From assembly GCF_044324785.1 (NCBI RefSeq), contig NZ_CP172127.1: a stretch of DNA of 64,000 nt. One strand, 5' to 3'. The notes beneath the pieces were generated by a model. That model saw only the letters and a program-made list of their open reading frames with translations, searched no databases and had not been told where the DNA came from. The DNA is from Escherichia coli (GTDB lineage Bacteria; Pseudomonadota; Gammaproteobacteria; Enterobacterales; Enterobacteriaceae). A program made the position numbers and the translations under genes. Shown piece after piece: positions 14,385-55,341 of the stretch. Position 1 is the first letter of the stretch. Each line of letters starts with the position of its first letter.

Positions 14385-14433
14385 ATACTATAGGGGGGTA
14401 TGCATTGACATATAGAATACCCCCCCTATAGTA
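14385..14433 (+). promoter_or_regulatory. frmR promoter and operator: perfect 16-bp inverted repeat with G6/C6 tracts around the -35/-10
   Basis: ATACTATAGGGGGGTA (14385-14400) and TACCCCCCTATAGTAT (14418-14433) are exact reverse complements; TTGACA at 14405-14410 and TATAGT at 14427-14432 lie between/within them. Confidence 0.75.
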
Positions 14434-14460
14434 TATTGCATGCAGATGATGAGGTGCGAA

Positions 14461-14736
14461 ATGCCCAGTACTCCGGAAGAGAAGAAAAAGGTCCTTACTC
14501 GAGTTCGTCGTATTCGGGGGCAGATTGATGCTCTGGAACGGTCGCTGGAGGGTGATGCCGAATGCCGTGCCATACTCCAACAGATCGCTGCCGTTCGGGG
14601 CGCGGCTAACGGGCTGATGGCAGAAGTGCTTGAAAGCCATATCCGGGAAACGTTTGACCGAAATGACTGCTACAGCCGCGAAGTCAGCCAATCCGTTGAC
14701 GACACTATTGAACTGGTTCGTGCCTATCTTAAATAG
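14461..14736 (+). CDS. frmR: Formaldehyde-responsive repressor FrmR (CsoR/RcnR family), 91 aa
   Basis: Protein [30 protein letters not shown]…; RBS GAGGTG 5 bp upstream of ATG 14461. Confidence 0.9.
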
Positions 14737-14740
14737 CTGA

Positions 14741-15880
<1,140 letters not shown>

Positions 15881-15971
15881 TTTCCCGCAGGTTTACCCGT
15901 CCAGTTCAGACGGGGTTCTTAATACTCTCCCCGGGCAGCCGTCCGGGGGATTAACCGTGAGATAATGACTG

Positions 15972-16805
15972 ATGGAACTCATTGAAAAACATGCCAGCTT
16001 TGGCGGCTGGCAAAATGTGTATCGGCATTATTCCCAATCACTGAATTGTGAAATGAATGTCGGCGTCTATCTCCCACCAAAAGCCGCGAATGAAAAATTG
16101 CCGGTACTGTACTGGCTTTCGGGCCTGACCTGTAACGAGCAGAATTTCATTACTAAATCGGGGATGCAGCGTTACGCGGCTGAGCACAACATTATTGTTG
16201 TTGCGCCAGACACCAGTCCACGAGGCAGCCATGTCGCAGATGCCGACCGTTACGATCTCGGGCAAGGTGCCGGGTTTTACCTGAACGCAACGCAAGCGCC
16301 GTGGAATGAACATTACAAAATGTATGATTATATCCACAACGAGCTGCCGGATTTAGTAATGCAACATTTTCCGGCAACGACCAGAAAGTCTATCTCAGGT
16401 CATTCTATGGGTGGGCTGGGCGCGCTGGTGCTGGCGTTACGTAACCCAGATGAATATGTCAGCGTCTCGGCGTTTTCGCCCATTGTCTCCCCATCGCAAG
16501 TACCGTGGGGACAGCAAGCCTTTGCCGCATATCTTGGTGAAAATAAAGATGCCTGGTTGGATTACGATCCGGTGAGTCTTATTTCACAAGGTCAACGCGT
16601 TGCGGAAATCATGGTTGATCAGGGGTTGAGTGATGATTTTTACGCAGAACAGCTGCGGACTCCAAATCTTGAAAAGATCTGCCAGGAGATGAATATCAAG
16701 ACGTTAATCCGTTATCACGAGGGTTACGACCACAGCTATTATTTTGTCTCCAGTTTTATTGGCGAGCATATTGCCTACCACGCCAATAAACTGAATATGC
16801 GTTGA
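15972..16805 (+). CDS. frmB: S-formylglutathione hydrolase, 277 aa
   Basis: Esterase motif GHSMGG; position after frmA. Confidence 0.9.
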   Translation: MELIEKHASFGGWQNVYRHYSQSLNCEMNVGVYLPPKAANEKLPVLYWLSGLTCNEQNFITKSGMQRYAAEHNIIVVAPDTSPRGSHVADADRYDLGQGAGFYLNATQAPWNEHYKMYDYIHNELPDLVMQHFPATTRKSISGHSMGGLGALVLALRNPDEYVSVSAFSPIVSPSQVPWGQQAFAAYLGENKDAWLDYDPVSLISQGQRVAEIMVDQGLSDDFYAEQLRTPNLEKICQEMNIKTLIRYHEGYDHSYYFVSSFIGEHIAYHANKLNMR

Positions 16806-16820
16806 TAATAGTGCACGGCT

Positions 16821-16916
16821 GCCGGATGCGGCGTGAACGCCTTATCCGCCTACATTTCGCCCGCAGGCCGTAGGCATGATAAGACGCGGCAGCGTCGTAT
16901 CAGGCATCTGCGCACG
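16821..16916. repeat. REP/BIME element between frmB and yaiL
   Basis: GCCGGATGCGGCGTGAACGCCTTATCCGCCTAC followed by a second REP-like unit. Confidence 0.8.
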
Positions 16917-16928
16917 ACTTATCTATGT

Positions 16929-17468
16929 TTACCACATCAAATCATCAGGCACTTTGAAGTCGGCATACGGATCGTCTTCATCCTGCTCTTCGGCACTGAG
17001 CGCGCTGTGCAACACAATACTGCTGGCATCACGCTGAGCAATTTTATCGGCAACGCTGGCAGGAATAATGGCGTATTCACCTTCGCTATTGTTATCGACC
17101 AACAAGCGGGCAATCGCCAGACGACCATTAATCAACTGCGCTTGCGTGAGCTTATCGACAAAGATTTTCTTAATCAGATTACCGTCAGTGAAGTTAAAAC
17201 CAATATCGCCATTAGCAATGGTGATTCGGTTCATTTCAATGAGCTGCTTCACCTGAGCTTTATATTCTTTCGCCAACGCCGCTTGTTTTTGCTGCTCGCT
17301 AAGCTGTTTATCACGTTCAAGCTGTGCCTTTTTATTTTCTTCTACCGCCGCCCGAGCTTCACGCGCCTGAACGCGCGATTTTTTCGCCGTTCTCTCGACC
17401 TTCGCCGCTTTTTTGCTGGTGACTAATCCTGCTTTGAGCAACTGCTCTTGTAAGGTAAGTTTTGCCAT
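16929..17468 (-). CDS. yaiL: DUF2058-family protein YaiL, 179 aa
   Basis: Start placed at ATG 17468 (MAKLTLQEQLLKAG…); the ORF-track start 17480 is an upstream TTG. Confidence 0.8.
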   Translation of the reverse strand: MAKLTLQEQLLKAGLVTSKKAAKVERTAKKSRVQAREARAAVEENKKAQLERDKQLSEQQKQAALAKEYKAQVKQLIEMNRITIANGDIGFNFTDGNLIKKIFVDKLTQAQLINGRLAIARLLVDNNSEGEYAIIPASVADKIAQRDASSIVLHSALSAEEQDEDDPYADFKVPDDLMW

Positions 17469-17569
17469 CTTTGTTTCCAAACCCGCTGAATAATTTTTAG
17501 CGAGTATACCTGTAAACGCCGTAGGTGTATTGGGGGCAAGTCCCTTTCGCCCCTACTTAATAAGGCGCG

Positions 17570-18781
17570 TCAGGCATCGGCGCACGGCTGCATTCGTGAT
17601 CTCCGGCTCATCAAAATAAACACCGCCAACCCCGCAACAAGAATACCCGGCGCAGAAGCGGCCATTACGCCAACTGTGCCAGTACCTAATGCCAGCATTT
17701 TCCCGGCCAGTAACGGACCGCTCATAGCCCCCAGACGCCCTACCGCCACGGCTGTTCCCACACCTGTTGCGCGAATCTGCGAACTGTAAAACAACGGTGC
17801 CAGGGCATACAAAACGCTTTGCCCACCTGTCGCAAACAACCCCGCGACGAATCCCGCCAGCAACATACCGTTAAATGACGACACCGTTCCCAGCGCCAGC
17901 AGCGAAGCTAACATGCCGCTATAAATCAGTAGCGACATGGTTACTGGACGCAGCTTATCCATCAATGCGCCCAACATTAACGTCCCGCTTGCCGCACCCA
18001 TTTGCAGTGCAAACATCACCCCTGCCGCCTGCGATGGCTGGAATCCTTGCTCCACCAAAAGCAGCGGTAGCCAGTTGATCAACATGTAGACCACCAGCAG
18101 AGTGAAGAAATAACACAACCACAGCAGCAGCGTCGCGGTTGCCGTTTCTGGCGCAAATAACGCACGCAGTGGTGGCGCAGCCTGTTTTTCGCCAGCGAAA
18201 ACCGCCGACTCCGGCAGCCAGCGCATTAATAGCGGCACCAGAATCAACGGCACCACACCACCTACCCAAAACACCGTTTGCCATGCTAAGTTTGCCCCCG
18301 CGAAACCCAGCGTCGCCGCCAGCGCCGCGCCAATGGGGACACCGCAATACATCAGGCTCACTGCCGTCCCACGAAAACGTGGCCCCGCGGCTTCAGACGT
18401 CAGGGCGATCAGATTCGGCAACGCCGCCCCCAGCCCGACACCGGTCATCAGCCGCGCAAAGACCAGCGAGGGAAAATCCCAGGCAATCGCCGTTGCCAGT
18501 GAGAACAAACCAAACAGCGCAACTGAGCCAATCAAAATTCGCTTGCGACCATAACGGTCCGCCAGCATTCCGCCAACCAACGCGCCGGGTAGCAAACCGA
18601 GTATTCCGGCGCTGAATATCCAGCCCATTTGCATTTTATCGAGTGCAAAAGCCTGGGCGATGCCACCCGCCGCAATGCCAGCCGCCTGAAGATCCAGCCC
18701 TTCCATCAGAGCGACCAAAAAACAAAGCCCGATAGTCAGCATCAGGCGGGATGAAGATGATGAAGGGGTACGAGTCGACAT
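17570..18781 (-). CDS. mhpT: 3-hydroxyphenylpropionate transporter (MFS), 403 aa
   Basis: Start placed at ATG 18781 (MSTRTPSSSSSRL…); 12-TM MFS-like hydrophobicity. Confidence 0.85.
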   Translation of the reverse strand: MSTRTPSSSSSRLMLTIGLCFLVALMEGLDLQAAGIAAGGIAQAFALDKMQMGWIFSAGILGLLPGALVGGMLADRYGRKRILIGSVALFGLFSLATAIAWDFPSLVFARLMTGVGLGAALPNLIALTSEAAGPRFRGTAVSLMYCGVPIGAALAATLGFAGANLAWQTVFWVGGVVPLILVPLLMRWLPESAVFAGEKQAAPPLRALFAPETATATLLLWLCYFFTLLVVYMLINWLPLLLVEQGFQPSQAAGVMFALQMGAASGTLMLGALMDKLRPVTMSLLIYSGMLASLLALGTVSSFNGMLLAGFVAGLFATGGQSVLYALAPLFYSSQIRATGVGTAVAVGRLGAMSGPLLAGKMLALGTGTVGVMAASAPGILVAGLAVFILMSRRSRMQPCADA

Positions 18782-18874
18782 AAGATGAACCTCGTTGCGA
18801 GTGCAGGTGAATCGCGACTGATACATTGCCAGCCACGTAATCAGAACCATTTAATGACTGCCTACGGGCGAAAT

Positions 18875-18909
18875 GTAGGCCGGACAAGACGTTTACGCCG
18901 CATCCGGCA
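18875..18909. repeat. REP element between mhpE and mhpT
   Basis: GTAGGCCGGACAAGACGTTTACGCCGCATCCGGCA. Confidence 0.75.
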
Positions 18910-18956
18910 GTCGTGTTGGGATGGGCATACAAAATGCACGTTCTCGGCAGTCATCA

Positions 18957-19966
18957 TTATTTGTTGTTGCGCAGATCCAGCGCCACGTCGACGATCATAT
19001 CCTCCTGGCCGCCAACCATCCGGCGTTTGCCCAGCTCAACGAGAATATCCACCGCGCTTAAGCCATAACGCGCCGCCGCCGTTTCACAGTGACGCAGGAA
19101 GCTCGAGTAAACACCAGCGTATCCCAGCGCCAGCGTTTCGCGATCGACTCGTACCGGTCGATCCTGCAACGGACGCACCAGGTCGTCAGCGGCATCCATT
19201 AACGCATAGAGATCGGTCCCATGCTGCCAACCCAGTTTATCCGCGGCGGCAATAAACACTTCCAGCGGCGCGTTACCTGCGCCCGCGCCCATTCCCGCGA
19301 GACTGGCATCGATTCGGTCGCAGCCCTCTTCCACCGCCGCGATAGAGTTCGCCACGCCAAGACTCAGGTTATGGTGAGCGTGCATGCCGGTTTGCGTTTC
19401 TGGTTTCAGCACTGCTTTCAGAGCGCGGAAACGGTCACGGATATCGCTCATGTTCATCGCACCGCCAGAATCCACCACATAAATACAGGTCGCACCGTAG
19501 CCTTCCATCAGCTTTGCCTGCTTTGCGAGATTCTCCGGCGTGGTCATATGGCTCATCATCAGAAAACCAACGGTGTCCATTCCGAGCTCGCGGGCATACT
19601 GAATATGCTGGGCGGAAACATCGGCTTCGGTACAGTGCGTTGCCACACGAACCACCCGCGCGCCAGCCTGCCAGGCATTTTTCAAATCGTGAATAGTGCC
19701 GATTCCAGGCAGCAACAACGTCGCGATTTTGGCGTGCTTCACCACATCCGCCGCTGCTTCAATCCATTCAAGGTCGCTATGTGCGCCGAAACCATAGTTA
19801 AAGCTGGACCCCTGCAAACCGTCGCCATGGGCCACTTCAATCGAATCCACGCGGGCATCGTCCAGTGCTTTGGCAATCTGGCGAACGTTTTCCAGCGAAT
19901 ACTGATGACGAATGGCGTGCATACCGTCACGCAACGTGACGTCCGAGATATATAGTTTTTTACCGT

Positions 19967-19970
<4 letters not shown>
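18957..19970 (-). CDS. mhpE: 4-hydroxy-2-oxovalerate aldolase, 337 aa
   Basis: Recognised by sequence and operon position. Confidence 0.9.
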
Positions 19971-21732
<1,762 letters not shown>

Positions 21733-44418: not shown

Positions 44419-44594
44419 CAATTGCCTTAATAAAATTAAATGTTTAATTTCAATTTGTTAGCAATATAGTCATGAAGTAATCCGCAAATATGCGTTTCAG
44501 TTAACGTTTCAGGCAATGTTTCACCGCGTTTCATTGCAACAATTATGAAACAAGACTAAACCCAATATTCGGTTTCTTAACTTTGCGGTGCGCT

Positions 44595-46181
44595 ATGGCA
44601 CATCCACCACGGCTGAATGACGACAAACCGGTTATCTGGACGGTATCTGTAACGCGGCTGTTCGAGCTGTTTCGCGATATCAGCCTCGAGTTTGATCATC
44701 TGGCGAACATTACCCCTATCCAGCTTGGCTTTGAAAAAGCGGTGACCTACATCCGCAAGAAACTGGCAAGCGAACGCTGTGACGCCATCATCGCTGCTGG
44801 CTCTAACGGCGCATATCTTAAAAGCCGCCTGTCAGTGCCAGTTATTTTGATTAAACCGAGCGGCTACGATGTGTTACAGGCACTGGCAAAAGCCGGAAAA
44901 CTCACCTCTTCTATCGGCGTTGTGACTTATCAGGAAACTATTCCGTCGCTGGTGGCGTTTCAAAAAACCTTTAATTTGCGCCTCGACCAACGTAGCTACA
45001 TTACCGAAGAAGACGCGCGCGGGCAGATTAACGAGCTGAAAGCTAACGGCACCGAAGCGGTGGTCGGCGCGGGGCTGATTACCGATTTGGCAGAAGAAGC
45101 CGGAATGACCGGAATTTTTATCTATTCCGCCGCCACCGTGCGCCAGGCATTCAGCGATGCGCTGGATATGACGCGCATGTCGTTACGCCATAACACTCAC
45201 AATGCCACCCGTAACGCCCTGCGTACTCGTTACGTGCTGGGCGATATGCTCGGTCAATCATCACAGATGGAACAGGTACGGCAGACTATTATGCTGTATG
45301 CCCGCTCCAGTGCGGCGGTGTTGATTGAAGGGGAAACGGGGACGGGCAAAGAGCTGGCGGCCCAGGCGATTCATCGGGAATATTTTGCCCGCCACGATGC
45401 GCGACAGGGCAAAAAGTCGCATCCGTTTGTTGCCGTCAACTGCGGGGCGATTGCCGAATCGCTGCTGGAAGCAGAGCTGTTTGGCTATGAGGAAGGGGCG
45501 TTTACCGGCTCGCGACGCGGAGGACGCGCCGGACTGTTCGAAATTGCCCACGGCGGCACGCTGTTTCTTGACGAGATAGGCGAAATGCCTCTGCCATTGC
45601 AGACTCGGCTGTTACGAGTGCTGGAAGAAAAAGAGGTCACTCGCGTCGGCGGGCATCAGCCTGTTCCGGTGGATGTGCGGGTCATTAGCGCCACCCACTG
45701 CAATCTGGAAGAAGATATGCGGCAAGGGAAGTTTCGCCGTGACCTGTTTTATCGGCTGAGTATTTTGCGTCTGCAATTGCCACCACTGCGCGAGCGGGTG
45801 GCGGATATTCTTCCGCTGGCGGAAAGCTTTTTGAAAGTGTCTCTGGCGGCGCTCTCCGCCCCGTTTTCTGCCGCATTACGCCAGGGATTACAGGCAAGCG
45901 AAACCGTGCTGGTGCACTACGACTGGCCGGGCAATATTCGTGAACTGCGCAATATGATGGAGCGACTGGCGCTGTTTTTAAGTGTGGAACCGACGCCGGA
46001 TTTAACGCCGCAATTTTTGCAGCTGCTACTGCCGGAGCTGGCGCGCGAGTCGGCGAAAATTCCCGCTCCACGCTTACTGACACCACAACAGGCACTGGAG
46101 AAATTTAAAGGCGATAAAACAGCAGCGGCGAATTATTTAGGCATAAGCCGGACGACGTTCTGGCGGCGGCTGAAAAACTGA
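44595..46181 (+). CDS. prpR: Sigma54-dependent activator of the prp operon, 528 aa
   Basis: AAA+ sigma54-interaction motifs ([14 protein letters not shown]); start placed at ATG 44595. Confidence 0.9.
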
Positions 46182-46184
46182 ACT

Positions 46185-46216
46185 GCCGAATGCAGCGCGA
46201 ACGCTTTATCCGGCAT
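46185..46216. repeat. REP element downstream of prpR
   Basis: GCCGAATGCAGCGCGAACGCTTTATCCGGCAT. Confidence 0.7.
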
Positions 46217-46281
46217 AAATTTCAATAGATGATGATCACCGATAAACTTACGCATCGGGGATGTTTACATAGGTTTCAGAA

Positions 46282-46557
46282 TTACTTCTTCTTATAAATA
46301 TTTGCCGTACCGTGAATCTTATTGTCAGTTTGACCAGAGGTCAGCACCAACACATCAGCCCCTTTTTCATCGGCTTTTTTGATTAAATCTTCTTTTGCAT
46401 CTGCAGTCGACATTTCATTACTGGTTGAAATATCACCTATTTTTTCATATTGCGATTCAACTTTTTCAAATTCCGCTTTGGTCATCAATTCAGCGGCATA
46501 GACATTGGTAACGGCAAACGCTAACGCACCGACTAACATTTTAGAGATTATTTTCAT
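46282..46557 (-). CDS. yahO: DUF1471-family periplasmic protein YahO, 91 aa
   Basis: Signal peptide [21 protein letters not shown]. Confidence 0.85.
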
Positions 46558-46703
46558 ATTACGGCTCCAGAGTTGTTATCACACTATCACCCACCGACAT
46601 TATTGGGTTGATTAATAATTAGTTCAGTCAGGGCATAAACGCCAGTAACCGGAAATAAGACACTTTGTGATCTCTCTCGCACCCCATTATTTTTGGTAGA
46701 AAT

Positions 46704-47375
46704 ATGATGCAGTTAGTTCACTTATTTATGGATGAAATCACTATGGATCCTTTGCATGCCGTTTACCTGACCGTAGGACTGTTCGTGATTACTTTTTTTA
46801 ATCCGGGAGCCAATCTCTTTGTGGTAGTACAAACCAGCCTGGCTTCCGGTCGACGCGCAGGAGTGCTGACCGGACTGGGCGTGGCGCTGGGCGATGCATT
46901 TTATTCCGGGTTGGGTTTGTTTGGTCTTGCAACGCTAATTACGCAGTGTGAGGAGATTTTTTCGCTTATCAGAATCGTCGGCGGCGCTTATCTCTTATGG
47001 TTTGCGTGGTGCAGCATGCGCCGCCAGTCAACACCGCAAATGAGCACACTACAACAACCGATTAACGCCCCCTGGTATGTCTTTTTTCGCCGCGGATTAA
47101 TTACCGATCTCTCTAACCCGCAAACCGTTTTATTTTTTATCAGTATTTTCTCAGTAACATTAAATGCCGAAACACCAACATGGGCACGTTTAATGGCCTG
47201 GGCGGGGATTGTGCTCGCATCAGTTATCTGGCGCGTTTTTCTTAGTCAGGCGTTTTCTTTGCCCGCAGTGCGTCGTGCTTATGGGCGTATGCAACGCGTT
47301 GCCAGTCGGGTTATTGGTGCAATTATTGGTGTATTCGCGCTACGCCTGATTTACGAAGGGGTGACGCAGCGGTGA
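46704..47375 (+). CDS. yahN: LysE/RhtB-family amino-acid exporter, 223 aa
   Basis: Six-TM hydrophobic profile typical of the family. Confidence 0.85.
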   Translation: MMQLVHLFMDEITMDPLHAVYLTVGLFVITFFNPGANLFVVVQTSLASGRRAGVLTGLGVALGDAFYSGLGLFGLATLITQCEEIFSLIRIVGGAYLLWFAWCSMRRQSTPQMSTLQQPINAPWYVFFRRGLITDLSNPQTVLFFISIFSVTLNAETPTWARLMAWAGIVLASVIWRVFLSQAFSLPAVRRAYGRMQRVASRVIGAIIGVFALRLIYEGVTQR

Positions 47376-47391
47376 GCAGATAATTTACTCT

Positions 47392-47637
47392 CTACGTAAT
47401 CAACCTGATTTGCCGAATCCCGACCATCGGCGATGATAGCCCCCGTAATGCGTGGTCCTTATTTCCGATAAGTTTACTTGAGTCTTTAGCTTCCCATTTC
47501 AGCCCACTCTCCCCTGTGTGGGCTTTTTTCATTGCTCTGACCCGTCCTGAATAGCCAAACAATGGCAATGTTCCACTTTGCAGGGATGATAATAAGGGGA
47601 TCTGATTCAGAAGAGTTTTGAAAAGTTGGACCGCCAT
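47392..47637 (-). CDS. yahM: Small uncharacterised protein, about 81 aa (YahM-like)
   Basis: Short ORF at the K-12 yahM position; start (47637 versus 47667) and coding status not established. Confidence 0.4.
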   Translation of the reverse strand: MAVQLFKTLLNQIPLLSSLQSGTLPLFGYSGRVRAMKKAHTGESGLKWEAKDSSKLIGNKDHALRGLSSPMVGIRQIRLIT

Positions 47638-48049
47638 CGAGGCCTCGAACCCCGTACCATACAACAATCCTGGTTGTCGTCTGCTCTTCCTGATGAGCTA
47701 ATGGCGGTTTTTGATATGAGCCTTACAGCATATTTTCTGTCAGGCTTGAGTGCGATGCGTAAGATACAGAAAAGACCCCACACAAACATGATGGAATTAT
47801 GATTTTTTTCATATGAATGTCAACCCACACATTCACAAAACATCTGCATGAGATCATTTTTTATACACCGTATAGCTGCGAAACCACTGCTGATGCTTTT
47901 TTAAGCGAAGTGTCGCCGATCACAACAAAATATCGGCGAAAAAAGAGATGGAATGCCAGTTGGCATACAGATATACAGATGAAATGATTACCTGCATTGC
48001 GATTCACTCTCTGGTGGAATAACAACTTGCAGGTGGAACCCTTTCTGAA

Positions 48050-48865
48050 CTAAAGAGTGTAGCGGATTTTAACGTGCTTATTTACAGGATAATATCTGTC
48101 ACCTAATTCCTGCACTCTATTAGATATCCATTCATTTAATCGCGCATCATCTCTGTATGTTTTTACGTCCAGAACAGAGAGCAATAACCTCACCAGTGAT
48201 TCAGGAAAAACAGGGTAGATATTTTTTAAGTGTAATAATAATCCATGCGCAAGCGCCTGCTTAATGGGCGCGTCGGTCTCCGGGATAGACGACATTTCGC
48301 TAAGCCACTTTTCCACATGCATACACTCTTTCCCTTTAGGGAAAAGTCTCAGCAAAGGCATATGGTGTTCAAGAAGAATACATTTGCAATCTGTTCGCAC
48401 TGAATCGATAAACTGCACTAATTTCTTAAGCCCGGTAAAGCGTCCAGCCTGCACGTTTGCTTTAATATCAAGAAACGCATCATCCTGGTCATATACCCAA
48501 ACTGTCCCTTTTTGATTTTCAAGTATGCGAAAAACAAACTTAACCGGGTGATCAGGGTAATCCATCCAGTCATAAAACCCAGGGAAATCATTAAACTGCA
48601 CATTTATGGTGAGTGCGTTATCGTCTGACCACTCACAGTCTCGTACGGCAGCCATGAGATGAATGAGTTTGTCGTCATCGACTAAATCATCACGACAATC
48701 ATAAGGATAATCATAATATTGTTTAATCAAAACCTTGAATATATCGACACAGGAGACCAGGGAGCTTTTGATATCCTCTGATAACTGATTGTTTTTAACC
48801 GTATTAAGTATGCTTTGTTGCGTATATGGCATCAAATTATTGTGCGGAGCTTTTAATGATATCAT
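48050..48865 (-). CDS. yahL: Uncharacterised protein YahL, 271 aa, low-GC gene
   Basis: 271-aa ORF with no domain I recognise; markedly AT-rich coding sequence. Confidence 0.75.
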   Translation of the reverse strand: MISLKAPHNNLMPYTQQSILNTVKNNQLSEDIKSSLVSCVDIFKVLIKQYYDYPYDCRDDLVDDDKLIHLMAAVRDCEWSDDNALTINVQFNDFPGFYDWMDYPDHPVKFVFRILENQKGTVWVYDQDDAFLDIKANVQAGRFTGLKKLVQFIDSVRTDCKCILLEHHMPLLRLFPKGKECMHVEKWLSEMSSIPETDAPIKQALAHGLLLHLKNIYPVFPESLVRLLLSVLDVKTYRDDARLNEWISNRVQELGDRYYPVNKHVKIRYTL

Positions 48866-49107
48866 CGCGATCTCTCTTAAATAAAAATAAACGTCGCAGA
48901 TAATAAAGCCCTGATTAAACCAGGCACTATCAGAAATCGCTCATAACGAACGTGTGAAGTATTGTGTACTGGAGGGAGTTAATTTAACAATTTGAATTTA
49001 CGTTATAGGTTTTACTGCTACTTTGATATTATTTCGCTCTCCTTAACTAAAAAGTTAAGTGGAGAGCGAAGTTAATATGTTAAACCACAGGGTATTTATT
49101 AATTTTT

Positions 49108-50157
49108 TCAGTCTGTTAGTGTGCGATTATCGATAACAAAACGATATTTCACATCTCCTCGCAGCATTCGCTCATAGGCTTCATTAATTTGATCGGCCCG
49201 AATCATCTCTATATCAGCCACGATGCCATGTTCGGCGCAAAAATCGAGCATCTCCTGTGTTTCTGGAATGCCGCCAATCATAGAACCGGCTATCGCACGG
49301 CGTTTCATGATCAGGTTGAAAACTTCCGGTGATTTATGCGGTGTCGCAGGCGCACCAACCAGCGTCATGGTGCCATCACGCTTCAGCAAGGTGGTAAAAT
49401 CGTCGAGATTATGTGGCGCAGCTACTGTATTCAAAATGAAATCGAAACTCTTGAGATGAGCCGCCATCTCATCGGCATTGCGTGAGTTAACAACTTCATC
49501 GGCCCCCAGGGCTTTTGCCGCTTCGCGTTTTGCCTCAGAAGTGGTAAATGCCACCACATGCGCCCCCATCGCGTGGGCCAGCTTAATCCCCATATGTCCC
49601 AGACCGCCGATGCCAACCACGCCCACTTTTTTACCCGGCCCGGCCTGCCAGTGACGTAGCGGCGAGTATGTGGTGATCCCTGCACACAATAAAGGAGCCA
49701 CCGCCGCCAGCTGCTCTTGCGGGTGACGAATACGCAGAACATATCGCTCATGAACGACGATCTGTTGTGAGTAGCCGCCCAGCGTATGGCCCGGTTCGTC
49801 CGGCGTCGGCGAGTTATAGGTGCCGGTCATGTGATCACAGTAGTTTTCCAGCCCGTCTTCACACTCTTCGCAATGTTTACAACTGTCGACAATACAGCCG
49901 ACACCGACCAGATCGCCCGGCGCATATTTTTCTACCTGATCACCAACGGCTACCACGCGCCCTACAATTTCATGGCCCGGCACGCAGGGATAAACCGTCC
50001 CCGCCCACTCGGAACGGACCTGGTGGAGATCGGAATGGCAGACGCCACAGTAAGCGATTTCGATTTTGACATCATTCGGTCCCGGTTCACGCCGGGTGAT
50101 ATCCATCGGTTCAAGTGGTTGTTTAGCGGAATATGCACCAACAGCTTTGATCTTCAT
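49108..50157 (-). CDS. yahK: NADPH-dependent aldehyde reductase (zinc-type ADH), 349 aa
   Basis: Motifs GHEIVG and GVVGIGGLGH. Confidence 0.9.
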   Translation of the reverse strand: MKIKAVGAYSAKQPLEPMDITRREPGPNDVKIEIAYCGVCHSDLHQVRSEWAGTVYPCVPGHEIVGRVVAVGDQVEKYAPGDLVGVGCIVDSCKHCEECEDGLENYCDHMTGTYNSPTPDEPGHTLGGYSQQIVVHERYVLRIRHPQEQLAAVAPLLCAGITTYSPLRHWQAGPGKKVGVVGIGGLGHMGIKLAHAMGAHVVAFTTSEAKREAAKALGADEVVNSRNADEMAAHLKSFDFILNTVAAPHNLDDFTTLLKRDGTMTLVGAPATPHKSPEVFNLIMKRRAIAGSMIGGIPETQEMLDFCAEHGIVADIEMIRADQINEAYERMLRGDVKYRFVIDNRTLTD

Positions 50158-50243
50158 TGTGTTTACTCCTGATTAGCTATGTGTATTTGGCGACGCCTGA
50201 TATGTCATCGCGGCAAAACGCGTCCATTGAATATAGCCAATAT

Positions 50244-51230
50244 TTAAACCACCCGATCCAGCCCCAACATGCCGCGAGCCTGAATGAAACAGAGCAGCAA
50301 CGTTCCCCATAAGGCCATCGTCAGGTAGGGGCTTATACCGAGAATATTGAAGCCGCTTTCAATAATTTGCAGAAGAAACAGCGCCAGCACCATACCAATT
50401 ATCCGCCCGCTGCCGCCGTCCGGATTAACCCCGCCGAGTACTGCCGCGAGGATTGACACCAGCAAGTACGATTCGCCATAAGAGGCCTTAGCCGAGTTGA
50501 GTTTCGACATCATCAAAAATGCCGCTACCGCACAAAGCAAGGCGGAAATGACATACACCCATATCAGCACCCGACGAGTGTTAATACCGGAGTAAAGTGT
50601 TGCTCGTTCGTTAGAACCAATCAGATAAATGGCTTTACCGAGCGGCGTTTTCTCCAGCAATATCCACAGTCCCAGCGCCACTGCGGTAAACAACCACATC
50701 GGTAGCGGAATACCGAACCACTGTGCATGATTCAACCACAGCACCCATGAGGGATAATTGGCAATGGCGCTACCACCTGTCACCAGAATATTTATCCCTT
50801 TGAGCAACGTCATCATCCCAAGCGTTGCAAGAATTGGCGACACTCGAATACCAGCAATCAATACGCCGTTACATAAACCGATTATCACCGCCGCGCCAGC
50901 GCCCGCCAGTAACGTAGCGACAACCGTAGCAATACCCGGTGGATACTGAGTCGCCACCCACGCCATCACCAGTGAACAGGCGTTAGCAGTGGCTATAATT
51001 GACAAGTTAATGCCACCGCAAAGCATGGTCACCGCCATAGCCAACGCCAGAATGCCCAGCACGGGCATTTGCGAAGCGACGGACTGGAAATTACTTATCG
51101 ACCAGAAAATCTCCGGCATAGTAATGCTGAAGGCGGCAACAGTTAGCACCAGCAGGCCGATCAAGTAAAACTCAACGTTATTACGCCACGATTTTTTCAT
51201 AGCAGACTCCGGTTCTGATGCTGACTCCAC
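50244..51230 (-). CDS. Sugar-type ABC transporter permease (RbsC/LsrD-like), 328 aa
   Basis: Polytopic hydrophobic protein of the monosaccharide-permease type; overlaps the upstream permease by 34 nt. Confidence 0.75.
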   Translation of the reverse strand: MESASEPESAMKKSWRNNVEFYLIGLLVLTVAAFSITMPEIFWSISNFQSVASQMPVLGILALAMAVTMLCGGINLSIIATANACSLVMAWVATQYPPGIATVVATLLAGAGAAVIIGLCNGVLIAGIRVSPILATLGMMTLLKGINILVTGGSAIANYPSWVLWLNHAQWFGIPLPMWLFTAVALGLWILLEKTPLGKAIYLIGSNERATLYSGINTRRVLIWVYVISALLCAVAAFLMMSKLNSAKASYGESYLLVSILAAVLGGVNPDGGSGRIIGMVLALFLLQIIESGFNILGISPYLTMALWGTLLLCFIQARGMLGLDRVV

Positions 51231-52168
51231 GCCGTGGCGCTAATGCTGGCAACGATGATGATGCCGGTGATCAATGTTTGCCAGTAAGACGAGACTCCCA
51301 ATAAATTTAGCCCGTTTTGCATTACTGCCAACAACACCACGCCGAGCAAAGTACCGGTTAACGTGCCGCGCCCGCCGAGCAAACTAGTGCCGCCAAGCAC
51401 CACCGCAGCCAGTACTGTCAGCTCATAACCCAGAAGAGAATCGGGGGCGACAGTCATCACCGTCCACGACTGCACTACACCCGCAGCACCAGACATCAAT
51501 CCCATATAGCCGTAGACGAAAAGTTGCAGTTTCAGCACGCTAAAGCCGATGCGACTGGCTGATTCACGGTTCCCGCCAAGGGCATAAATTTTGCGCCCTA
51601 CACTGGTGAAATTCATGATAAACGCTGTTAGCAGCACCACCGTAATCATGGCGATCAGCGGTAGACCAAGGCCATAGTCATAGCCATCAGCATCGGTGTA
51701 CTTGAACAACATTACCCCCTGCTCAAACCACGGCGGAAAGTCGTACAGCCACACACCTTTACTCAACCATAACAGCAGGCCATAGAAAATATTCAGCGTC
51801 GAGATAGTGATGATGATAGAAGGCACCCGTAGGCGATTAACCAGTAAGGCGTTTATTAAGCCAAGTAAAATGCCGATGCCGCCCGCCAGTGCAAACGCGA
51901 CAGCGAAGTTGCCACCAATTTTTTGCAGCAACAGCACCATGCCGTATTGCGCAATGATGGTCATTGCCGGAAACGAAATATCAATTCCACCGGAAATCAA
52001 CACCACAAACAAACCACAGGCGAGAATAGTCAACATGGCATAGTTATTGGCGAGATCGTACAAATTACCGAATGTCAGAAACTCGTCGCTGCGCCAGGCA
52101 AGGCCGACAAACAGCCCCACAATCAGTAATGCCAGCCAGAATTCATGACGTTTTTTCAGTTCAGCCAT
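51197..52168 (-). CDS. Sugar-type ABC transporter permease (RbsC/LsrC-like), 323 aa
   Basis: Polytopic hydrophobic protein; 8-nt overlap with the ATPase gene. Confidence 0.75.
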   Translation of the reverse strand: MAELKKRHEFWLALLIVGLFVGLAWRSDEFLTFGNLYDLANNYAMLTILACGLFVVLISGGIDISFPAMTIIAQYGMVLLLQKIGGNFAVAFALAGGIGILLGLINALLVNRLRVPSIIITISTLNIFYGLLLWLSKGVWLYDFPPWFEQGVMLFKYTDADGYDYGLGLPLIAMITVVLLTAFIMNFTSVGRKIYALGGNRESASRIGFSVLKLQLFVYGYMGLMSGAAGVVQSWTVMTVAPDSLLGYELTVLAAVVLGGTSLLGGRGTLTGTLLGVVLLAVMQNGLNLLGVSSYWQTLITGIIIVASISATAWSQHQNRSLL

Positions 52169-53660
52169 TTACCACCTCCGCAATCCTGGCCTGAGAACTG
52201 CTGTCAGGCAGGAAGCTATGGGTGATCTGACCTTTCTGCATTACCAAAATCCGGTGGCTTTGATACCACGCTTCTTCAATTTCATCGCAGATCATCAATA
52301 CCGCAATGCCATGAGCCGCCAGATCGCTGATAATGCCGTATATTCCTGCTTTGTTGGCGATATCAACACCGACTGTCGGGCTATCGAGAATCAACAGTCG
52401 TGGCCCAATCGCCAGCCATTTGGCGATCGATACTCGCTGCGCGTTACCCCCGGAAAGCGTACTCACCGGGAGATGTGGGTCAGAGACTTTGATGGTCAAT
52501 GCCTTGATTAGCCTGTCCACCAGGTCACGCACTTTAGCTTCACTCAGAAAGCCGAAGCGATCTTTTACCTTGTGAAAAACAGTGCTAATGATGTTGTCTT
52601 CAATAGATTGCGCCATCACCAAACCGCGCGACATGCGATCTTCCGAAACATAACCAATACCGTGGCGGATGGCGTCCTGGTTACTATGCAGTGTAACCGG
52701 CTGACCGTTGATGAGGATCTCACCAGCATCCGGTCGGGTCATACCAAACAGACTCAGACATAATTCCGTGCGCCCCGCACCAAGCAGGCCAACAATCGAC
52801 ACCACTTCGCCCGCTTCCACCCGCAAGTTAATATTTTGATATTCCCCATGACGACTTAAATTACGCACCTCCAGCACTGGGGTGCTGGATTTTCCCTGCC
52901 ACAACTCTCGTACCTGATATTCGAACTCCTGGCCGGTCATCAGAAAACTGAGTTGTTTTGTGGTCATCTCTGCGGCCGGAAAGGTCCCGACCAGCTCACC
53001 ATCTTTCAGCACTGAAATACGGTCGGAAACTTCCATCACTTCTTCCAGACGATGACTGACGAAGACCACGCAGATCCCGCGTTCCCGCAATTGATGCACC
53101 ACCTGTAATAACCCTTGCACTTCCTGATGGGTCAGCGAAGCGGTTGGTTCATCCATCACGATCAACCGTGCGTCCTGCGCCAGTGCACGGCAAATTGCCA
53201 CCAGCTGACAGCGGGCAATTGAAAGCTCAGAAACGAGCGTATCCAGAGGCAATGTGACGTTAATACTGGTCATTGCCGCCTGCGCCACCTCACGCAGACG
53301 ACGTCGGTTAACAAACAGACCGTGGTGATAGTGATTCACGGCGATATTCTCCCAGACACTCAGGTTAGGAAATAAAGAGAGGTCCTGATAAATCACCTGA
53401 ATCCCCTGCGCCACCGAAGCGGCGGGTGTCAGCTTTGACCAGTTTTTCCCACCAAGCGTAATTTCCGCCCCCTCATCCGGGCGATAAACACCGGACATAA
53501 TTTTAATCAACGTCGATTTACCACAGCCGTTTTGCCCGGCAAGGCAGTGCACCTCACCCGACATAAAGTCGAGAGAAACATCGCGCAGCGCTCGCGTGGC
53601 ATGAAACGTTTTGTTGATATGACGAAGGGAAAGGAAGGTTTCCATAGCATCCCCTGGCAA
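52161..53660 (-). CDS. Two-domain ABC transporter ATP-binding protein (RbsA/LsrA-like), 499 aa
   Basis: Two Walker A motifs (GQNGCGKST and GLLGAGRTE) and signature LSGGNAQRV. Confidence 0.85.
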   Translation of the reverse strand: MPGDAMETFLSLRHINKTFHATRALRDVSLDFMSGEVHCLAGQNGCGKSTLIKIMSGVYRPDEGAEITLGGKNWSKLTPAASVAQGIQVIYQDLSLFPNLSVWENIAVNHYHHGLFVNRRRLREVAQAAMTSINVTLPLDTLVSELSIARCQLVAICRALAQDARLIVMDEPTASLTHQEVQGLLQVVHQLRERGICVVFVSHRLEEVMEVSDRISVLKDGELVGTFPAAEMTTKQLSFLMTGQEFEYQVRELWQGKSSTPVLEVRNLSRHGEYQNINLRVEAGEVVSIVGLLGAGRTELCLSLFGMTRPDAGEILINGQPVTLHSNQDAIRHGIGYVSEDRMSRGLVMAQSIEDNIISTVFHKVKDRFGFLSEAKVRDLVDRLIKALTIKVSDPHLPVSTLSGGNAQRVSIAKWLAIGPRLLILDSPTVGVDIANKAGIYGIISDLAAHGIAVLMICDEIEEAWYQSHRILVMQKGQITHSFLPDSSSQARIAEVVNG

Positions 53661-53693
53661 TAAGAATCGGGGCTTTCGCCCCGAAGAAATGGA

Positions 53694-54680
53694 TTAATAA
53701 AGTGAGTCGATATTGTCTTTGTTGACCAGTAATACCTTATGGAAACGGATAATTCGCTTATCCATATCTACGTCGGCCTTACCGAGATTCTCCATTTCTA
53801 ATCCAGGTTTGATCTCTTCACCCTTCAGCAACGTGCTGGCGACGGCCGCGAGTGCGTAACCTGCAGAGGCCGGATCGTAAGTAATCCCTTCGGTGATATC
53901 ACCACTTTTAATCAGTGATGCCGCCTGTGAAGGGATCATCATGCCATAGACTGCGACTTTATTTTTCGCCCGTTTCTCTTTCACTGCACGTCCCGCGCCA
54001 ATCGGACCGTTTGAACCAAAGGAGACAACCGCTTTCAAGTCAGGATAGGTTTTCATGAGGTCCAGTGTGGTACGACGTGAGTCATCCACACTCTCGGCAA
54101 CCGGCATGCGGCGGGTAACTTCATGCATATCCGGGTAATGCTCTTTCTGGTATTTCACCAGCAAGTCAGCCCATAAGTTATGCTGCGGCACGGTCAAACT
54201 ACCCACGTAAATCACATAGCCGCCCTTGCCACCCATGCGTTTCGCCATATGCTCAACATATTCAGCGGCAAATTTTTCGTTATCAATGATTTCGATATCC
54301 CAGTTAGCACTTGGCTGACCGGGGGATTCGTTGGTCAGAACCACAATTCCGGCATCTCGCGCTTTTTTGAATACCGGTTCCAGCACGTTGGCATCGTTTG
54401 GCACAATTGTAATTGCATTAACCTTACGGGCGATTAAATCCTCAATAATTTTAACTTGTTGCGGAGCATCAGTACTTGAAGGCCCCACCTGTGACGCATT
54501 AACACCAAAGGCTTTACCCGCCTCAACCACACCTTCGCCCATGCGATTAAACCACGGCATACCATCGACTTTAGAGATATTCACCACGACTTTTTCCGCT
54601 GCCTGGAGCGGCGCAGAAATTAGCGCAGCGCCTAATAACAGCGAAGACACCATATTGATAACAAAACGTTTATTCATCAT
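53694..54680 (-). CDS. Periplasmic sugar-binding protein (LsrB/RbsB-type), 328 aa
   Basis: Signal peptide MMNKRFVINMVSSLLLGAALISAPLQA; C-terminus …FHKVLLVNKDNIDSLY resembles the LsrB C-terminus as I recall it. Confidence 0.7.
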   Translation of the reverse strand: MMNKRFVINMVSSLLLGAALISAPLQAAEKVVVNISKVDGMPWFNRMGEGVVEAGKAFGVNASQVGPSSTDAPQQVKIIEDLIARKVNAITIVPNDANVLEPVFKKARDAGIVVLTNESPGQPSANWDIEIIDNEKFAAEYVEHMAKRMGGKGGYVIYVGSLTVPQHNLWADLLVKYQKEHYPDMHEVTRRMPVAESVDDSRRTTLDLMKTYPDLKAVVSFGSNGPIGAGRAVKEKRAKNKVAVYGMMIPSQAASLIKSGDITEGITYDPASAGYALAAVASTLLKGEEIKPGLEMENLGKADVDMDKRIIRFHKVLLVNKDNIDSLY

Positions 54681-54930
54681 TTCAGCCTCATTGCAGGGTA
54701 GTCAGGAAGTGTTCGCCCAAATTAGCGCGCTGGAGAGAATAAGAATTTTCGAATATTTTTATGCAGAATAAACAGCCCTATTTCAGGCAGCTATTAAAAA
54801 TTTGGTTATAAATATGGACAAAACGGGCAGCAATAATAAGTGTGACACTCATCACGTAAAAAATAGCAAAATAAACAAAATTAGCGATATTTTATGTTTG
54901 TGAGCTTATTTCGCGTAGAAAAATAGTTAT

Positions 54931-55341
54931 CTACACAACGTCAATAAGGGCATATTCTTCAAAGATAACGTCCATTTCGGGTGAATAGCATCCTTCTGCC
55001 TGGAAAAAACGACGGTGTTCATTACGCCAATATTCAAGACTGAGGTCACCTTCACCTTCCTTACGGGCAAGCTCCGCGGTGACATCAGAAAAGCGCAGTA
55101 AATGCAGGCCAATCACTCTGATAACACAGACAGGCTCACCACGGCTATTTTCTACAATCTTATACTCACCAATCATCGGAAATGCGTTGTCTTCAATACA
55201 TCCCGCCAGCGAACCACAGGAAGCTGTTTTAACACCTGTCGCAATCAACGTTGCGAGGTGATCGGCCAACGCTGCTGAATCGCCAAAAGTACAAAAGGAA
55301 GCATGGGGATATTTTTGTGAGATTTTTTCTTTTATGGTCAT
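54931..55341 (-). CDS. Small cytoplasmic protein, possible ASCH/PUA-like domain, about 136 aa
   Basis: Segment TGVKTASCGSL resembles the ASCH G-x-K-T motif; start (55341 versus 55374) uncertain. Confidence 0.45.
   Translation of the reverse strand: MTIKEKISQKYPHASFCTFGDSAALADHLATLIATGVKTASCGSLAGCIEDNAFPMIGEYKIVENSRGEPVCVIRVIGLHLLRFSDVTAELARKEGEGDLSLEYWRNEHRRFFQAEGCYSPEMDVIFEEYALIDVV

What the first reader, a model, noticed from the sequence alone, without database searches (positions are those of the whole stretch)
47376..49107. Low-GC islet (yahL and yahM region) between core genes yahN and yahK
The yahL coding sequence and its flanks are markedly more AT-rich than the neighbouring genes. 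YahL (271 aa) has no domain I recognise, and about 400 bp of apparently non-coding sequence (47640-48050) lies downstream of it. This is the signature of horizontally acquired, possibly H-NS-silenced DNA.
Basis: seen in the sequence. Interest (0 to 1): 0.35.

Follow-up and report, generated by a model that had tools for sequence, protein, structure and literature searches.

The report
Foreign yahL islet with phage tRNA relic
The AT-rich patch is real and is old foreign DNA found only in Escherichia: an H-NS-silenced orphan gene (yahL) sits next to a gap that is not empty but holds a promoter and a phage-derived tRNA-like element, which is identical in every Escherichia lineage examined.

Summary
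Window 47376-49107 has 40.3% GC against 51.9% for the whole window (1st percentile), and yahL has the lowest GC3 of 46 long ORFs.

- prpR-yahO-yahN is syntenic in Citrobacter and Salmonella, but synteny ends right after yahN.
- YahL has no relative outside Escherichia and matches no known domain or fold.
- Published RNA-seq shows yahL about 21-fold up in a delta-hns strain.
- yahL is a real gene (dN/dS 0.155) and has been inherited vertically since a deep Escherichia split.
- About 25% of complete E. coli genomes lack yahL. 1073 of them share one clean 835-bp deletion junction; CFT073 and an ST95 strain are among the yahL-less genomes.

The "non-coding 400 bp" is the most interesting part.
- It holds a near-consensus promoter and an 81-nt tRNA-like element (47627-47707, minus strand).
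- The element is homologous to the argN tRNA of lambdoid/Stx phages.
- It is 81/81 identical in eight loci from five lineages (E. coli, three divergent Escherichia lineages, E. albertii), while flanks differ by 8-20%.
- The two ORFs annotated over it, xtpA and yahM, are broken in most outgroups.

The same breakpoint (47845/47846) borders different cargo in different lineages, including a Zorya system.

The genes are mostly known; the tRNA-like and XtpA link is probably already published.

The parts
48050..48865 (-). yahL, a 271-aa orphan protein gene: AT-rich, H-NS-repressed, restricted to Escherichia.
   Evidence: - ORF and annotation.
- GC 0.397, GC3 0.408.
- No Pfam, NCBIfam, PADLOC or PHROG family.
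- dN/dS 0.155 with dS 0.71, equal to the flanks.
- Present in 4075 of 5426 E. coli genomes.
- Delta-hns log fold change 4.39.
48037..48871 (.). 835-bp segment (yahL CDS plus 13 bp after the stop and 6 bp before the ATG) missing in yahL-less E. coli such as CFT073.
   Evidence: - BLAST of CFT073 against the window: 46200-48036 joins directly to 48872-50200 (alignment).
- The identical junction is present in 1073 of 5426 genomes.
- No flanking repeats.
48872..49030 (-). yahL upstream region; the yahL-yahK spacer it belongs to (48866-49107) is the most AT-rich stretch measured (about 33% GC). It is kept in yahL-less strains, including the AAGAGAG ribosome-binding site.
49032..49078 (-). Strong hairpin just downstream of yahK, the presumed yahK terminator.
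   Evidence: Fold energy -22.9 kcal/mol, z = -7.8. A diverged homologous hairpin is present in Escherichia sp. E1V33.
47846..48036 (-). Spacer downstream of yahL. It belongs to the yahL-bearing layer: present in E. coli, including CFT073, and in the L006 lineage, but absent in E. albertii, E1V33 and MOD1-EC5350.
47796..47823 (-). Sigma-70 promoter-like site, TTGACA-16-CATAAT (11 of 12 matches), probably the published yahM promoter.
   Evidence: - Scan.
- Conserved in E1V33, MOD1-EC5350 and E. albertii.
- Reg-Seq preprint 10.1101/2025.05.13.653802 confirms a yahM transcription start site with IHF as repressor.
47627..47707 (-). tRNA-like element: 7-bp acceptor stem plus CCA, canonical D and T arms, aberrant anticodon arm. 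It is derived from the lambdoid-phage argN tRNA.
   Evidence: - ARAGORN. It is the only call in the window, with 0 calls in 40 shuffles.
- Cloverleaf is the minimum-free-energy fold.
- 75-85% identical to the phage argN position.
- 81/81 identical in eight loci from five lineages.
- Present in 5195 of 5426 E. coli genomes, 4782 at 99% identity or more.
- Not matched by the Rfam tRNA model.
47607..47789 (-). ORF annotated in MG1655 as xtpA (b4845, 60 aa, 'putative transcriptional regulator'); it runs across the tRNA-like element.
   Evidence: - Annotation.
- The ATG-initiated ORF has TAG at codon 4 in E. albertii, MOD1-EC5350 and the L006 lineage.
47392..47637 (-). yahM ORF (81 aa). Its ATG lies inside the 3' acceptor strand of the tRNA-like element. 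It is not conserved as an ORF.
   Evidence: Premature stops or frameshifts in O157, CFT073, the L006 lineage, E1V33 and E. albertii.
47501..47529 (+). Terminator-like hairpin plus T-run for the convergent yahN gene, lying inside the yahM ORF.
   Evidence: Fold energy -13.3 kcal/mol, z = -4.2; sequence.

Best explanation
The low-GC patch is a composite of foreign DNA found only in Escherichia. It sits at the point where the conserved prpR-yahO-yahN block ends. It has two layers.

Layer 1 (window 47618-47845) is a promoter, a leader and an 81-nt tRNA-like element descended from the argN tRNA of lambdoid/Stx phages.
- It is present in E. coli, E. albertii and three divergent Escherichia lineages.
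- Its sequence is invariant, which implies selection on the nucleotide sequence (RNA or DNA) rather than on the overlapping xtpA and yahM reading frames.
- It is transcribed from its own sigma-70 promoter and does not depend on H-NS.

Layer 2 (about 47846-49030) is yahL with its AT-rich flanks.
- yahL is an orphan protein gene kept silent by H-NS under laboratory conditions.
- It evolves under moderate purifying selection.
- It was inherited vertically since before E. coli diversified, then lost once by a clean 835-bp deletion now carried by about 20% of sequenced E. coli.

The boundary between the layers (47845/47846) is a hotspot where different lineages carry different cargo.

Shown: composition, distribution, selection, phage homology, H-NS derepression (from the literature).
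Inferred: horizontal origin of yahL, deletion rather than insertion polarity, and RNA-level function of the tRNA-like element.
Unknown: the biochemical function of YahL.
For: - Composition.
- Gene identities.
- Synteny ends after yahN. Citrobacter and Salmonella loci have prpR (most also yahO) and yahN, then unrelated genes: a TonB-dependent receptor, an AraC regulator, a DosC-like cyclase.
- YahL has no relatives outside Escherichia, apart from P0026 (24% identity), which lies in a 30-38% GC island. That island also carries an IS256 fragment, an inverse autotransporter, a SicA-like chaperone and a SipB/SseC-like translocator.
- yahL dN/dS is 0.155 against 0.02-0.06 for the flanks. Its dS of 0.71 matches yahN (0.72) and yahK (0.68).
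- H-NS: delta-hns log fold change 4.39, P = 8.7e-21; yahM 0.72, not significant.
- YahL protein is below 1 ppm in wild type.
- RNA polymerase holoenzymes bind inside yahL in genomic SELEX.
- Deletion allele.
- tRNA-like element.
- Promoter.
- ORF decay.
- Variable cargo at the same breakpoint: yahJ in E. albertii, yahK in E1V33, Zorya ZorC/ZorD in MOD1-EC5350.
Against: - No integrase, insertion-sequence end, target-site duplication or inverted repeat flanks yahL. No donor was found: no phage match, and the only plasmid-collection matches to the remote homologue P0026 are yahL itself on F-prime-like or chromosome-sized records. Horizontal origin of yahL is therefore inferred from composition and distribution only.
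- Similarity to phage DNA stops about 10 nt outside the tRNA-like element. The apparent ileZ remnant upstream was not significant.
- I had no H-NS ChIP data, so binding itself is not shown. Derepression in delta-hns could be indirect.
- Rfam's tRNA model does not recognise the element.
- MG1655 annotates a protein (XtpA) over the element. I could not read the source of that annotation.
Confidence: 0.75

Rival explanations
1. yahL arose de novo from AT-rich intergenic DNA within Escherichia and was never transferred. The low GC simply reflects its non-genic ancestry.
For: - No homologue outside Escherichia in about 15 billion proteins.
- No mobile-element scars.
- No known fold or domain.
- Very low expression.
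- dN/dS is several times higher than in the neighbours.
Against: - A full-length 24%-identical homologue (P0026; pairwise E = 1e-19, library E = 9e-12) sits at an unrelated locus inside another AT-rich island. The family is therefore older than this locus and has moved.
- The protein is 271 aa with a coherent predicted alpha/beta-plus-helical architecture (pTM 0.62).
- dN/dS of 0.155 is not neutral.
Confidence: 0.1
2. The invariance of the 81-nt block is caused by selection on the protein XtpA (annotated as a putative transcriptional regulator) or on YahM translation initiation, not on an RNA. The tRNA resemblance is only a historical relic.
For: - MG1655 RefSeq annotates xtpA b4845 across the element.
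- The ORF is intact in all E. coli examined and in E1V33.
- Database proteins from E. albertii and MOD1-EC5350 keep the peptide KTAISSSGRADDNQDCCMVRGSRPRWRSNFS.
Against: - There are no synonymous differences in 27 codons, in lineages where neighbouring genes have dS 0.6-0.86.
- The ATG-initiated ORF has TAG at codon 4 in E. albertii, MOD1-EC5350 and the L006 lineage. The database ORFs in E. albertii and MOD1-EC5350 start at ATC.
- The N-terminal half differs at 10 of 27 residues in E1V33.
- The conserved block starts about 10 nt before the tRNA-like 5' end and stops 1-2 nt after CCA.
- The only common E. coli variant, in O157, turns a G-U pair of the T stem into G-C.
- yahM is broken in five lineages.
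Confidence: 0.25
3. The low GC is a functional property of core Escherichia DNA, for example regulatory curvature or a nucleoid-protein binding platform, and not evidence of foreign origin.
For: - yahO is 37% GC yet conserved and syntenic in Citrobacter and Salmonella.
- The yahM promoter is bound by IHF.
Against: - yahL is absent from every non-Escherichia locus, absent from three Escherichia lineages (a fourth, MOD1-EC7003, keeps only an IS-disrupted 3' fragment), and absent from 25% of E. coli.
- The GC3 deficit affects the coding sequence itself.
Confidence: 0.05

Closest known systems
H-NS-silenced xenogeneic genes of E. coli (AT-rich orphan genes such as those studied by Singh 2014 and Forrest 2022)
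   Same: - AT-rich relative to the genome and restricted to one lineage.
- Strongly derepressed in delta-hns.
- Promiscuous RNA polymerase binding inside the gene.
- Negligible protein level in wild type.
   Different: - Forrest et al.'s own table classes it as not horizontally acquired.
- It is a single-gene islet with no mobility genes.
- It is old: its dS equals that of the flanks across a deep Escherichia split.
- It is under purifying selection.
ileZ-argN-argO tRNA cluster of lambdoid/Stx phages (933W, VT2-Sakai, phiP27)
   Same: - The chromosomal element aligns with argN over the acceptor stem, D arm, T arm and CCA (75-85% identity).
- It shares the 27-nt replacement of the anticodon and variable region with the unannotated middle element of phiP27 and mEp460.
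   Different: - It stands alone, with no ileZ, argO, Q or stx context.
- It has no 7-nt anticodon loop with U33, and the Rfam tRNA model does not score it.
- It is chromosomal and fixed in Escherichia, and invariant, whereas the phage copies vary.
tRNA genes as anchors of genomic-island integration hotspots
   Same: A tRNA-shaped element sits at the edge of a segment whose content differs between lineages: yahJ, yahK, yahL plus yahK plus an ABC transporter, or Zorya.
   Different: - The variable DNA lies on the 5' (promoter) side, not at the 3' end where integrases act.
- There is no integrase and no duplicated partial tRNA copy in the window.
E. coli/Shigella 'conserved signature protein' YahL (Gupta laboratory qPCR marker, PMC11057252)
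   Same: It is the same gene, and restriction to E. coli/Shigella is confirmed at the protein level.
   Different: - It is not universally conserved: 1351 of 5426 complete genomes have no yahL.
- The qPCR amplicon lies inside the 835-bp deleted segment.

Membership tests
Horizontally acquired, H-NS-silenced (xenogeneic) DNA | Base composition clearly more AT-rich than the host genome | tested here: met
   GC is 0.403 against 0.519 for the window, at the 1st percentile. yahL GC3 is 0.408 against a mean of 0.599 (sd 0.062).
Horizontally acquired, H-NS-silenced (xenogeneic) DNA | Patchy or lineage-restricted distribution, with absence from syntenic loci of relatives | tested here: met
   - Absent after yahN in Citrobacter, Salmonella and Edwardsiella.
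- Absent in E. albertii, E1V33 and MOD1-EC5350.
- Absent in 25% of E. coli.
Horizontally acquired, H-NS-silenced (xenogeneic) DNA | Derepression when hns is deleted | tested here: met
   From the literature, not computed here: log fold change 4.39, P = 8.7e-21, in PMC8894471 Supplementary Data 2.
Horizontally acquired, H-NS-silenced (xenogeneic) DNA | Physical H-NS occupancy (ChIP) | not testable with these tools
   The supplements of the ChIP papers were not held as text, or did not list yahL.
Horizontally acquired, H-NS-silenced (xenogeneic) DNA | Identifiable donor or mobility signature (integrase, insertion sequence, att repeats) | tested here: not met
   - No flanking repeats.
- No phage match to YahL, and no plasmid match to its homologue P0026 other than yahL on chromosome-derived records.
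- The only phage-related piece is the tRNA-like element.
tRNA (Rfam RF00005) | Scores against the tRNA covariance model | tested here: not met
   No tRNA hit even at E <= 10 on 141 nt or at E <= 1 on 4.3 kb.
tRNA (Rfam RF00005) | Cloverleaf with a 7-bp acceptor stem, D arm, T arm (GTTCGA) and 3' CCA | tested here: met
   ARAGORN call. The minimum-free-energy and centroid folds are both a four-arm cloverleaf. Sequence.
tRNA (Rfam RF00005) | Canonical 5-bp anticodon stem with a 7-nt loop, U33 and a purine at position 37 | tested here: not met
   - The minimum-free-energy fold has a 7-bp stem and a 6-nt loop.
- ARAGORN's register gives the loop CAGGATT, with A at position 33 and U at position 37, and 4 extra nt after the D arm.
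Lambdoid-phage argN tRNA lineage | Sequence homology to phage argN, closer than to host tRNAs | tested here: met
   - 84.9% identity over 82 nt to phiP27 (E = 1e-17), with 269 phage records hit.
- In E. coli genomes the query finds a median of 1 place per genome, so it does not match host tRNA genes.
Lambdoid-phage argN tRNA lineage | Phage context (Q, ileZ, argO, stx or lysis genes) | tested here: not met
   No flanking similarity. Alignment of the leader to ileZ is no better than shuffled sequence.
Type III secretion effector or accessory protein (considered for YahL) | Genetic linkage to a type III secretion system, or a secretion or chaperone requirement | tested here: inconclusive
   Only the remote homologue P0026 is linked, to a SicA-like chaperone and a SipB/SseC-like translocator. 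yahL itself is not. Secretion cannot be tested here.

The most novel reading that the evidence does not exclude
The selected product of the 'empty' yahL-yahM gap is the RNA, not a protein. A pseudo-tRNA of the phage argN lineage was captured before E. coli and E. albertii diverged. It is expressed from its own IHF-controlled promoter and has been kept nucleotide-perfect as a stable tRNA-shaped RNA. It may act as a processing substrate, or as a decoy or regulator that uses the acceptor and T-arm surfaces. The XtpA and YahM reading frames are lineage-specific by-products. The same module marks a hotspot where Escherichia lineages swap cargo: yahL, an ABC transporter, Zorya.
Probability: 0.35. 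Interest if true: 0.6.

Novelty: already known. Interest (0 to 1): 0.35.

Why it matters
As stated, the finding is textbook: an AT-rich, H-NS-silenced orphan gene in the best-annotated bacterial genome. Three points add value.

1. yahL has been proposed as a universal E. coli/Shigella qPCR marker, yet a quarter of complete genomes lack it. These include the uropathogenic strain CFT073 and an ST95 strain. 1073 genomes share one deletion allele that removes the amplicon.

2. Both protein genes annotated on top of it, yahM and xtpA, fail a simple conservation test. This bears on how that locus should be interpreted experimentally.

3. The locus is a clean natural example of layered acquisition at one chromosomal breakpoint. 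A defence system (Zorya) occupies the same slot in another Escherichia lineage.

Tried and rejected
- **YahL related to DUF2686 (YjiC/YjfZ), the other E. coli-specific proteins of similar length.** BLASTP E = 4.6, so there is no relation at the sequence level.
- **P0009 and P0010 as distant YahL homologues.** They are an assembly chimera and a frameshifted long-read assembly of ordinary yahL.
- **Profile search with YahL plus P0026.** No new members.
- **Phage origin of yahL or yahM.** tblastn of YahL against phages gave no match, and neither protein has a significant PHROG hit.
- **The leader upstream of the tRNA-like element as a decayed ileZ.** The MAFFT alignment looked suggestive, but the Smith-Waterman score is below the shuffle mean. 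Rejected.
- **A small lipoprotein-like ORF (MKKIIIPSCLCG...) at 47723-47812.** It starts inside the promoter spacer and is probably spurious.
- **Partial tRNA-like duplicate marking an island end.** None in the window.
- **Direct or inverted repeats flanking yahL.** None meaningful.
- **H-NS ChIP evidence.** Supplements were not held or did not list yahL.
- **The source of the xtpA annotation.** No primary paper is in the library.
Full report
**1. What is there**

The window is an E. coli chromosome read in the reverse of K-12 orientation. The best match among 5426 complete genomes is 99.1% identity.

| Feature | Coordinates | Strand |
|---|---|---|
| prpR | 44583-46181 | + |
| yahO | 46282-46557 | - |
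| yahN | 46704-47375 | + |
| yahM | 47392-47637 | - |
| spacer (412 bp) | 47638-48049 | |
| yahL | 48050-48865 | - |
| spacer (242 bp) | 48866-49107 | |
| yahK | 49108-50157 | - |

An ABC-transporter cluster follows yahK. K-12 lacks it.

**2.

- The finding's span is 40.3% GC against 51.9% for the window. That is the 1st percentile of same-size windows.
- yahL is 39.7% GC and the yahL-yahK spacer 33.1%.
- yahL GC3 (0.408) sits at the bottom of the distribution for 46 long ORFs (mean 0.599, sd 0.062, minimum 0.406).
- One caution: yahO is 37% GC yet conserved in Citrobacter and Salmonella. Composition alone proves nothing.

**3. Distribution**

A scan of species-representative genomes with YahN returned 27 loci.
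- Almost all Citrobacter and Salmonella loci keep prpR-yahO-yahN. None has yahM, yahL or yahK after yahN.
- In Salmonella diarizonae, yahN is followed by a TonB-dependent receptor and an AraC regulator. In Citrobacter werkmanii it is followed by a DosC-like cyclase.

Within Escherichia the content after yahN differs by lineage:

| Lineage | Content after yahN |
|---|---|
| E. albertii | degraded yahM, a conserved 228-bp module, then yahJ |
| Escherichia sp. E1V33 | the module, then yahK |
| Escherichia sp. MOD1-EC5350 | the module, then a Zorya ZorC/ZorD system |
| A divergent lineage labelled E. coli (L005-L008, L012) | the full yahM-yahL-yahK arrangement plus the ABC transporter |

All non-coli lineages without yahL break homology with the window at the same point, 47845/47846.

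**4. yahL**

*Homologues and structure*
- YahL matches no Pfam, NCBIfam, PADLOC or PHROG family and no PDB sequence.
- An AlphaFold model from a 5-sequence alignment is mediocre (pLDDT 63.9, pTM 0.62). It shows a disordered N-terminus, a five-stranded sheet and a C-terminal helical bundle.
- The model finds no specific structural neighbour.
- Searches of 5.8 billion clusters and 1.84 billion representatives find only Escherichia YahL: alleles at 97%, 87% and 80% identity, plus fragments and assembly artefacts.
- They also find one genuine remote homologue, P0026 (275 aa, 24% identity over the full length, E = 9e-12). A profile search adds nothing.

*The remote homologue P0026*
- P0026 lies in a 30-38% GC island of one unusual E. 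coli genome.
- Its neighbours are an IS256 fragment, a 1350-aa inverse autotransporter, a SicA-like class II chaperone and a SipB/SseC-like translocator.
- It is absent from all 5426 complete E. coli genomes.
- So the family has moved between loci and keeps company with horizontally acquired virulence-type DNA. This argues against de novo birth at the yahL locus.

*Selection and silencing*
- Between the window and the divergent lineage, yahL has dN/dS 0.155. Its dS of 0.71 is indistinguishable from yahN (0.72) and yahK (0.68); the neighbours have dN/dS 0.02-0.06.
- yahL is therefore a real coding gene with relaxed but clear constraint, and it has co-diverged with its flanks. The acquisition is old.
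- Published data complete the picture:
  - yahL is 21-fold up in delta-hns (log fold change 4.39, P = 8.7e-21), while yahM is unchanged (PMC8894471).
  - YahL protein is below 1 ppm in wild type.
  - Several RNA polymerase holoenzymes bind inside yahL in genomic SELEX, as is typical of AT-rich foreign genes.
  - YahL has been proposed as an E. coli/Shigella-specific marker (PMC11057252).

**5. Presence/absence polymorphism**

- Only 4075 of 5426 complete E. coli genomes have yahL.
- CFT073 lacks exactly window 48037-48871. That is the coding sequence plus 13 bp after the stop and 6 bp before the ATG. Both AT-rich flanks, and even the yahL ribosome-binding site, are retained.
- The identical junction occurs in 1073 genomes. 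The yahL-less genomes include CFT073 and an ST95 strain, which from my own knowledge are phylogroup B2.
- A lineage far outside E. coli diversity carries yahL at the same site with flank-like dS. The simplest reading is therefore one deletion within E. coli. This polarity is inferred, not proven.
- No repeats flank the segment.

**6. The "non-coding" 412 bp**

*The element*
- ARAGORN calls one tRNA in the whole 64-kb window, at 47627-47707 on the minus strand. It makes no calls in 40 dinucleotide shuffles.
- The element has a perfect 7-bp acceptor stem, U8, a canonical D arm (AGCTCA..GG.AGAGC), a T arm with GGTTCGA, and an encoded CCA.
- Its anticodon region is abnormal, and its minimum-free-energy fold is a cloverleaf.
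- Rfam's tRNA model does not score it. This explains why no annotation pipeline reports it.

*Phage ancestry*
- BLAST against phages hits 269 lambdoid/Stx phage records, at exactly the argN position of the ileZ-argN-argO cluster between Q and stx.
- The element aligns best (85%) with an unannotated degenerate middle element of phiP27 and mEp460. It shares with them a 27-nt replacement of the anticodon and variable region.
- The query does not match host tRNA genes: the median is 1 place per E. coli genome.
- Homology stops about 10 nt outside the element. A suggested ileZ remnant upstream is not significant.

*Promoter and expression*
- The -10 hexamer of a TTGACA-16-CATAAT promoter-like site ends 88 nt upstream of the element's 5' end.
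- A Reg-Seq preprint confirms a yahM promoter repressed by IHF.
- 'yahM' appears in a small-RNA-enriched pool.

**7. Conservation of the element**

- It is 81/81 identical in K-12, CFT073, the divergent lineage, E1V33, MOD1-EC5350 and three E. albertii genomes. Adjacent segments are 80-93% identical, and neighbouring genes have dS 0.6-0.86.
- The invariant block begins about 10 nt before the 5' end and stops just after CCA.
- In E. coli, 4782 genomes match at 99% identity or more. The common variant (O157) changes a G-U pair of the T stem to G-C.
- The two ORFs annotated across it do not behave like conserved genes:
  - yahM is interrupted in O157, CFT073, the divergent lineage, E1V33 and E. 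albertii.
  - xtpA is b4845 in MG1655, annotated as a 'putative transcriptional regulator'. It has TAG at codon 4 in E. albertii, MOD1-EC5350 and the divergent lineage.
  - The database ORFs in E. albertii and MOD1-EC5350 begin at ATC.
- No synonymous change in 27 codons cannot be explained by protein selection alone.
- I conclude that the nucleotide sequence itself is under selection, most likely as an RNA. A dual-function locus is not excluded.

**8. Other anatomy**

- A yahN terminator hairpin (47501-47529, plus strand) lies inside the yahM ORF.
- A strong hairpin follows yahK.

**9. What is known and what is not**

- The genes, the E. coli specificity of YahL and its H-NS dependence are published.
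- xtpA is annotated, and the RegulonDB v12 paper contains both 'XtpA' and 'tRNA-like'. I could not read it, so the tRNA-like nature of this locus has probably been described.
- I did not find the following stated anywhere:
  - the argN-phage ancestry;
  - the nucleotide-perfect conservation across Escherichia species, contrasted with broken xtpA and yahM frames;
  - the shared breakpoint with variable cargo;
  - the single 835-bp deletion allele.

**10. Verdict**

It is an ordinary kind of object with an interesting small RNA-like passenger.

Noticed in passing
window 50244-55340: A five-gene cluster sits between yahK and yahJ: two ABC permeases, an ATPase, an AI-2-type substrate-binding protein and an ASCH-domain protein. 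It is present here, in strain N3 and in the divergent Escherichia lineage. In K-12 and CFT073 it is reduced to a 75-nt pseudogene remnant. This is a second presence/absence polymorphism next to the islet.
   Followed up: partly
L163:1-4860 (Escherichia sp. MOD1-EC5350): A Zorya type I defence system (ZorC E = 9e-228, ZorD E = 0) ends about 60 bp from the same breakpoint (window 47845/47846) that borders yahL in E. coli. The slot upstream of the tRNA-like module is a variable-cargo hotspot.
   Followed up: partly
window 48160-48271 (inside yahL): The published YahL qPCR marker for E. coli/Shigella (PMC11057252) lies inside the 835-bp segment missing from 1073 complete genomes. 1351 of 5426 genomes have no yahL at all, so the assay should miss CFT073-type and ST95-type strains.
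   Followed up: partly
L009:10001-10828 and 11005-20828: P0026, the only remote YahL homologue, sits in an AT-rich island inserted after yjiG. The island also carries an inverse autotransporter, a SicA-like chaperone and a SipB/SseC-like translocator, resembling an ETT2-associated eip-type locus. It hints at a type III secretion link for the YahL family.
   Followed up: partly
window 46282-46557 (yahO): yahO is as AT-rich (37% GC) as yahL but is conserved and syntenic in Citrobacter and Salmonella. It serves as a control showing that low GC alone does not indicate foreign origin.
   Followed up: yes
window 46157-46215: A weak Rfam hit to naRNA4 (27 bits, E = 0.068) lies just after prpR. The sequence looks like an ordinary REP element.
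   Followed up: no
window ~10360-11900: This is the other deep GC trough of the window: 0.33-0.40 GC, as low as the yahL islet. It was not examined.
   Followed up: no
L034:6637-7399 (Escherichia sp. MOD1-EC7003): In this lineage only the last 48 or so codons of yahL remain, abutting a transposase-like ORF (my reading of the translation; no domain search was run). yahM and the tRNA-like module are deleted. It is the one Escherichia lineage seen without the module.
   Followed up: partly
L164:6235-6295 versus window 48884-48944: A 61-bp piece of the yahL upstream spacer matches (77-79%) a site between yahN and an extra 208-aa ORF in E. albertii. It may be a small dispersed repeat.
   Followed up: no
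L006:6819-6957: The divergent Escherichia lineage carries about 120 extra bp immediately after the yahL stop codon. This is the same point as the left end of the E. coli 835-bp deletion.
   Followed up: no
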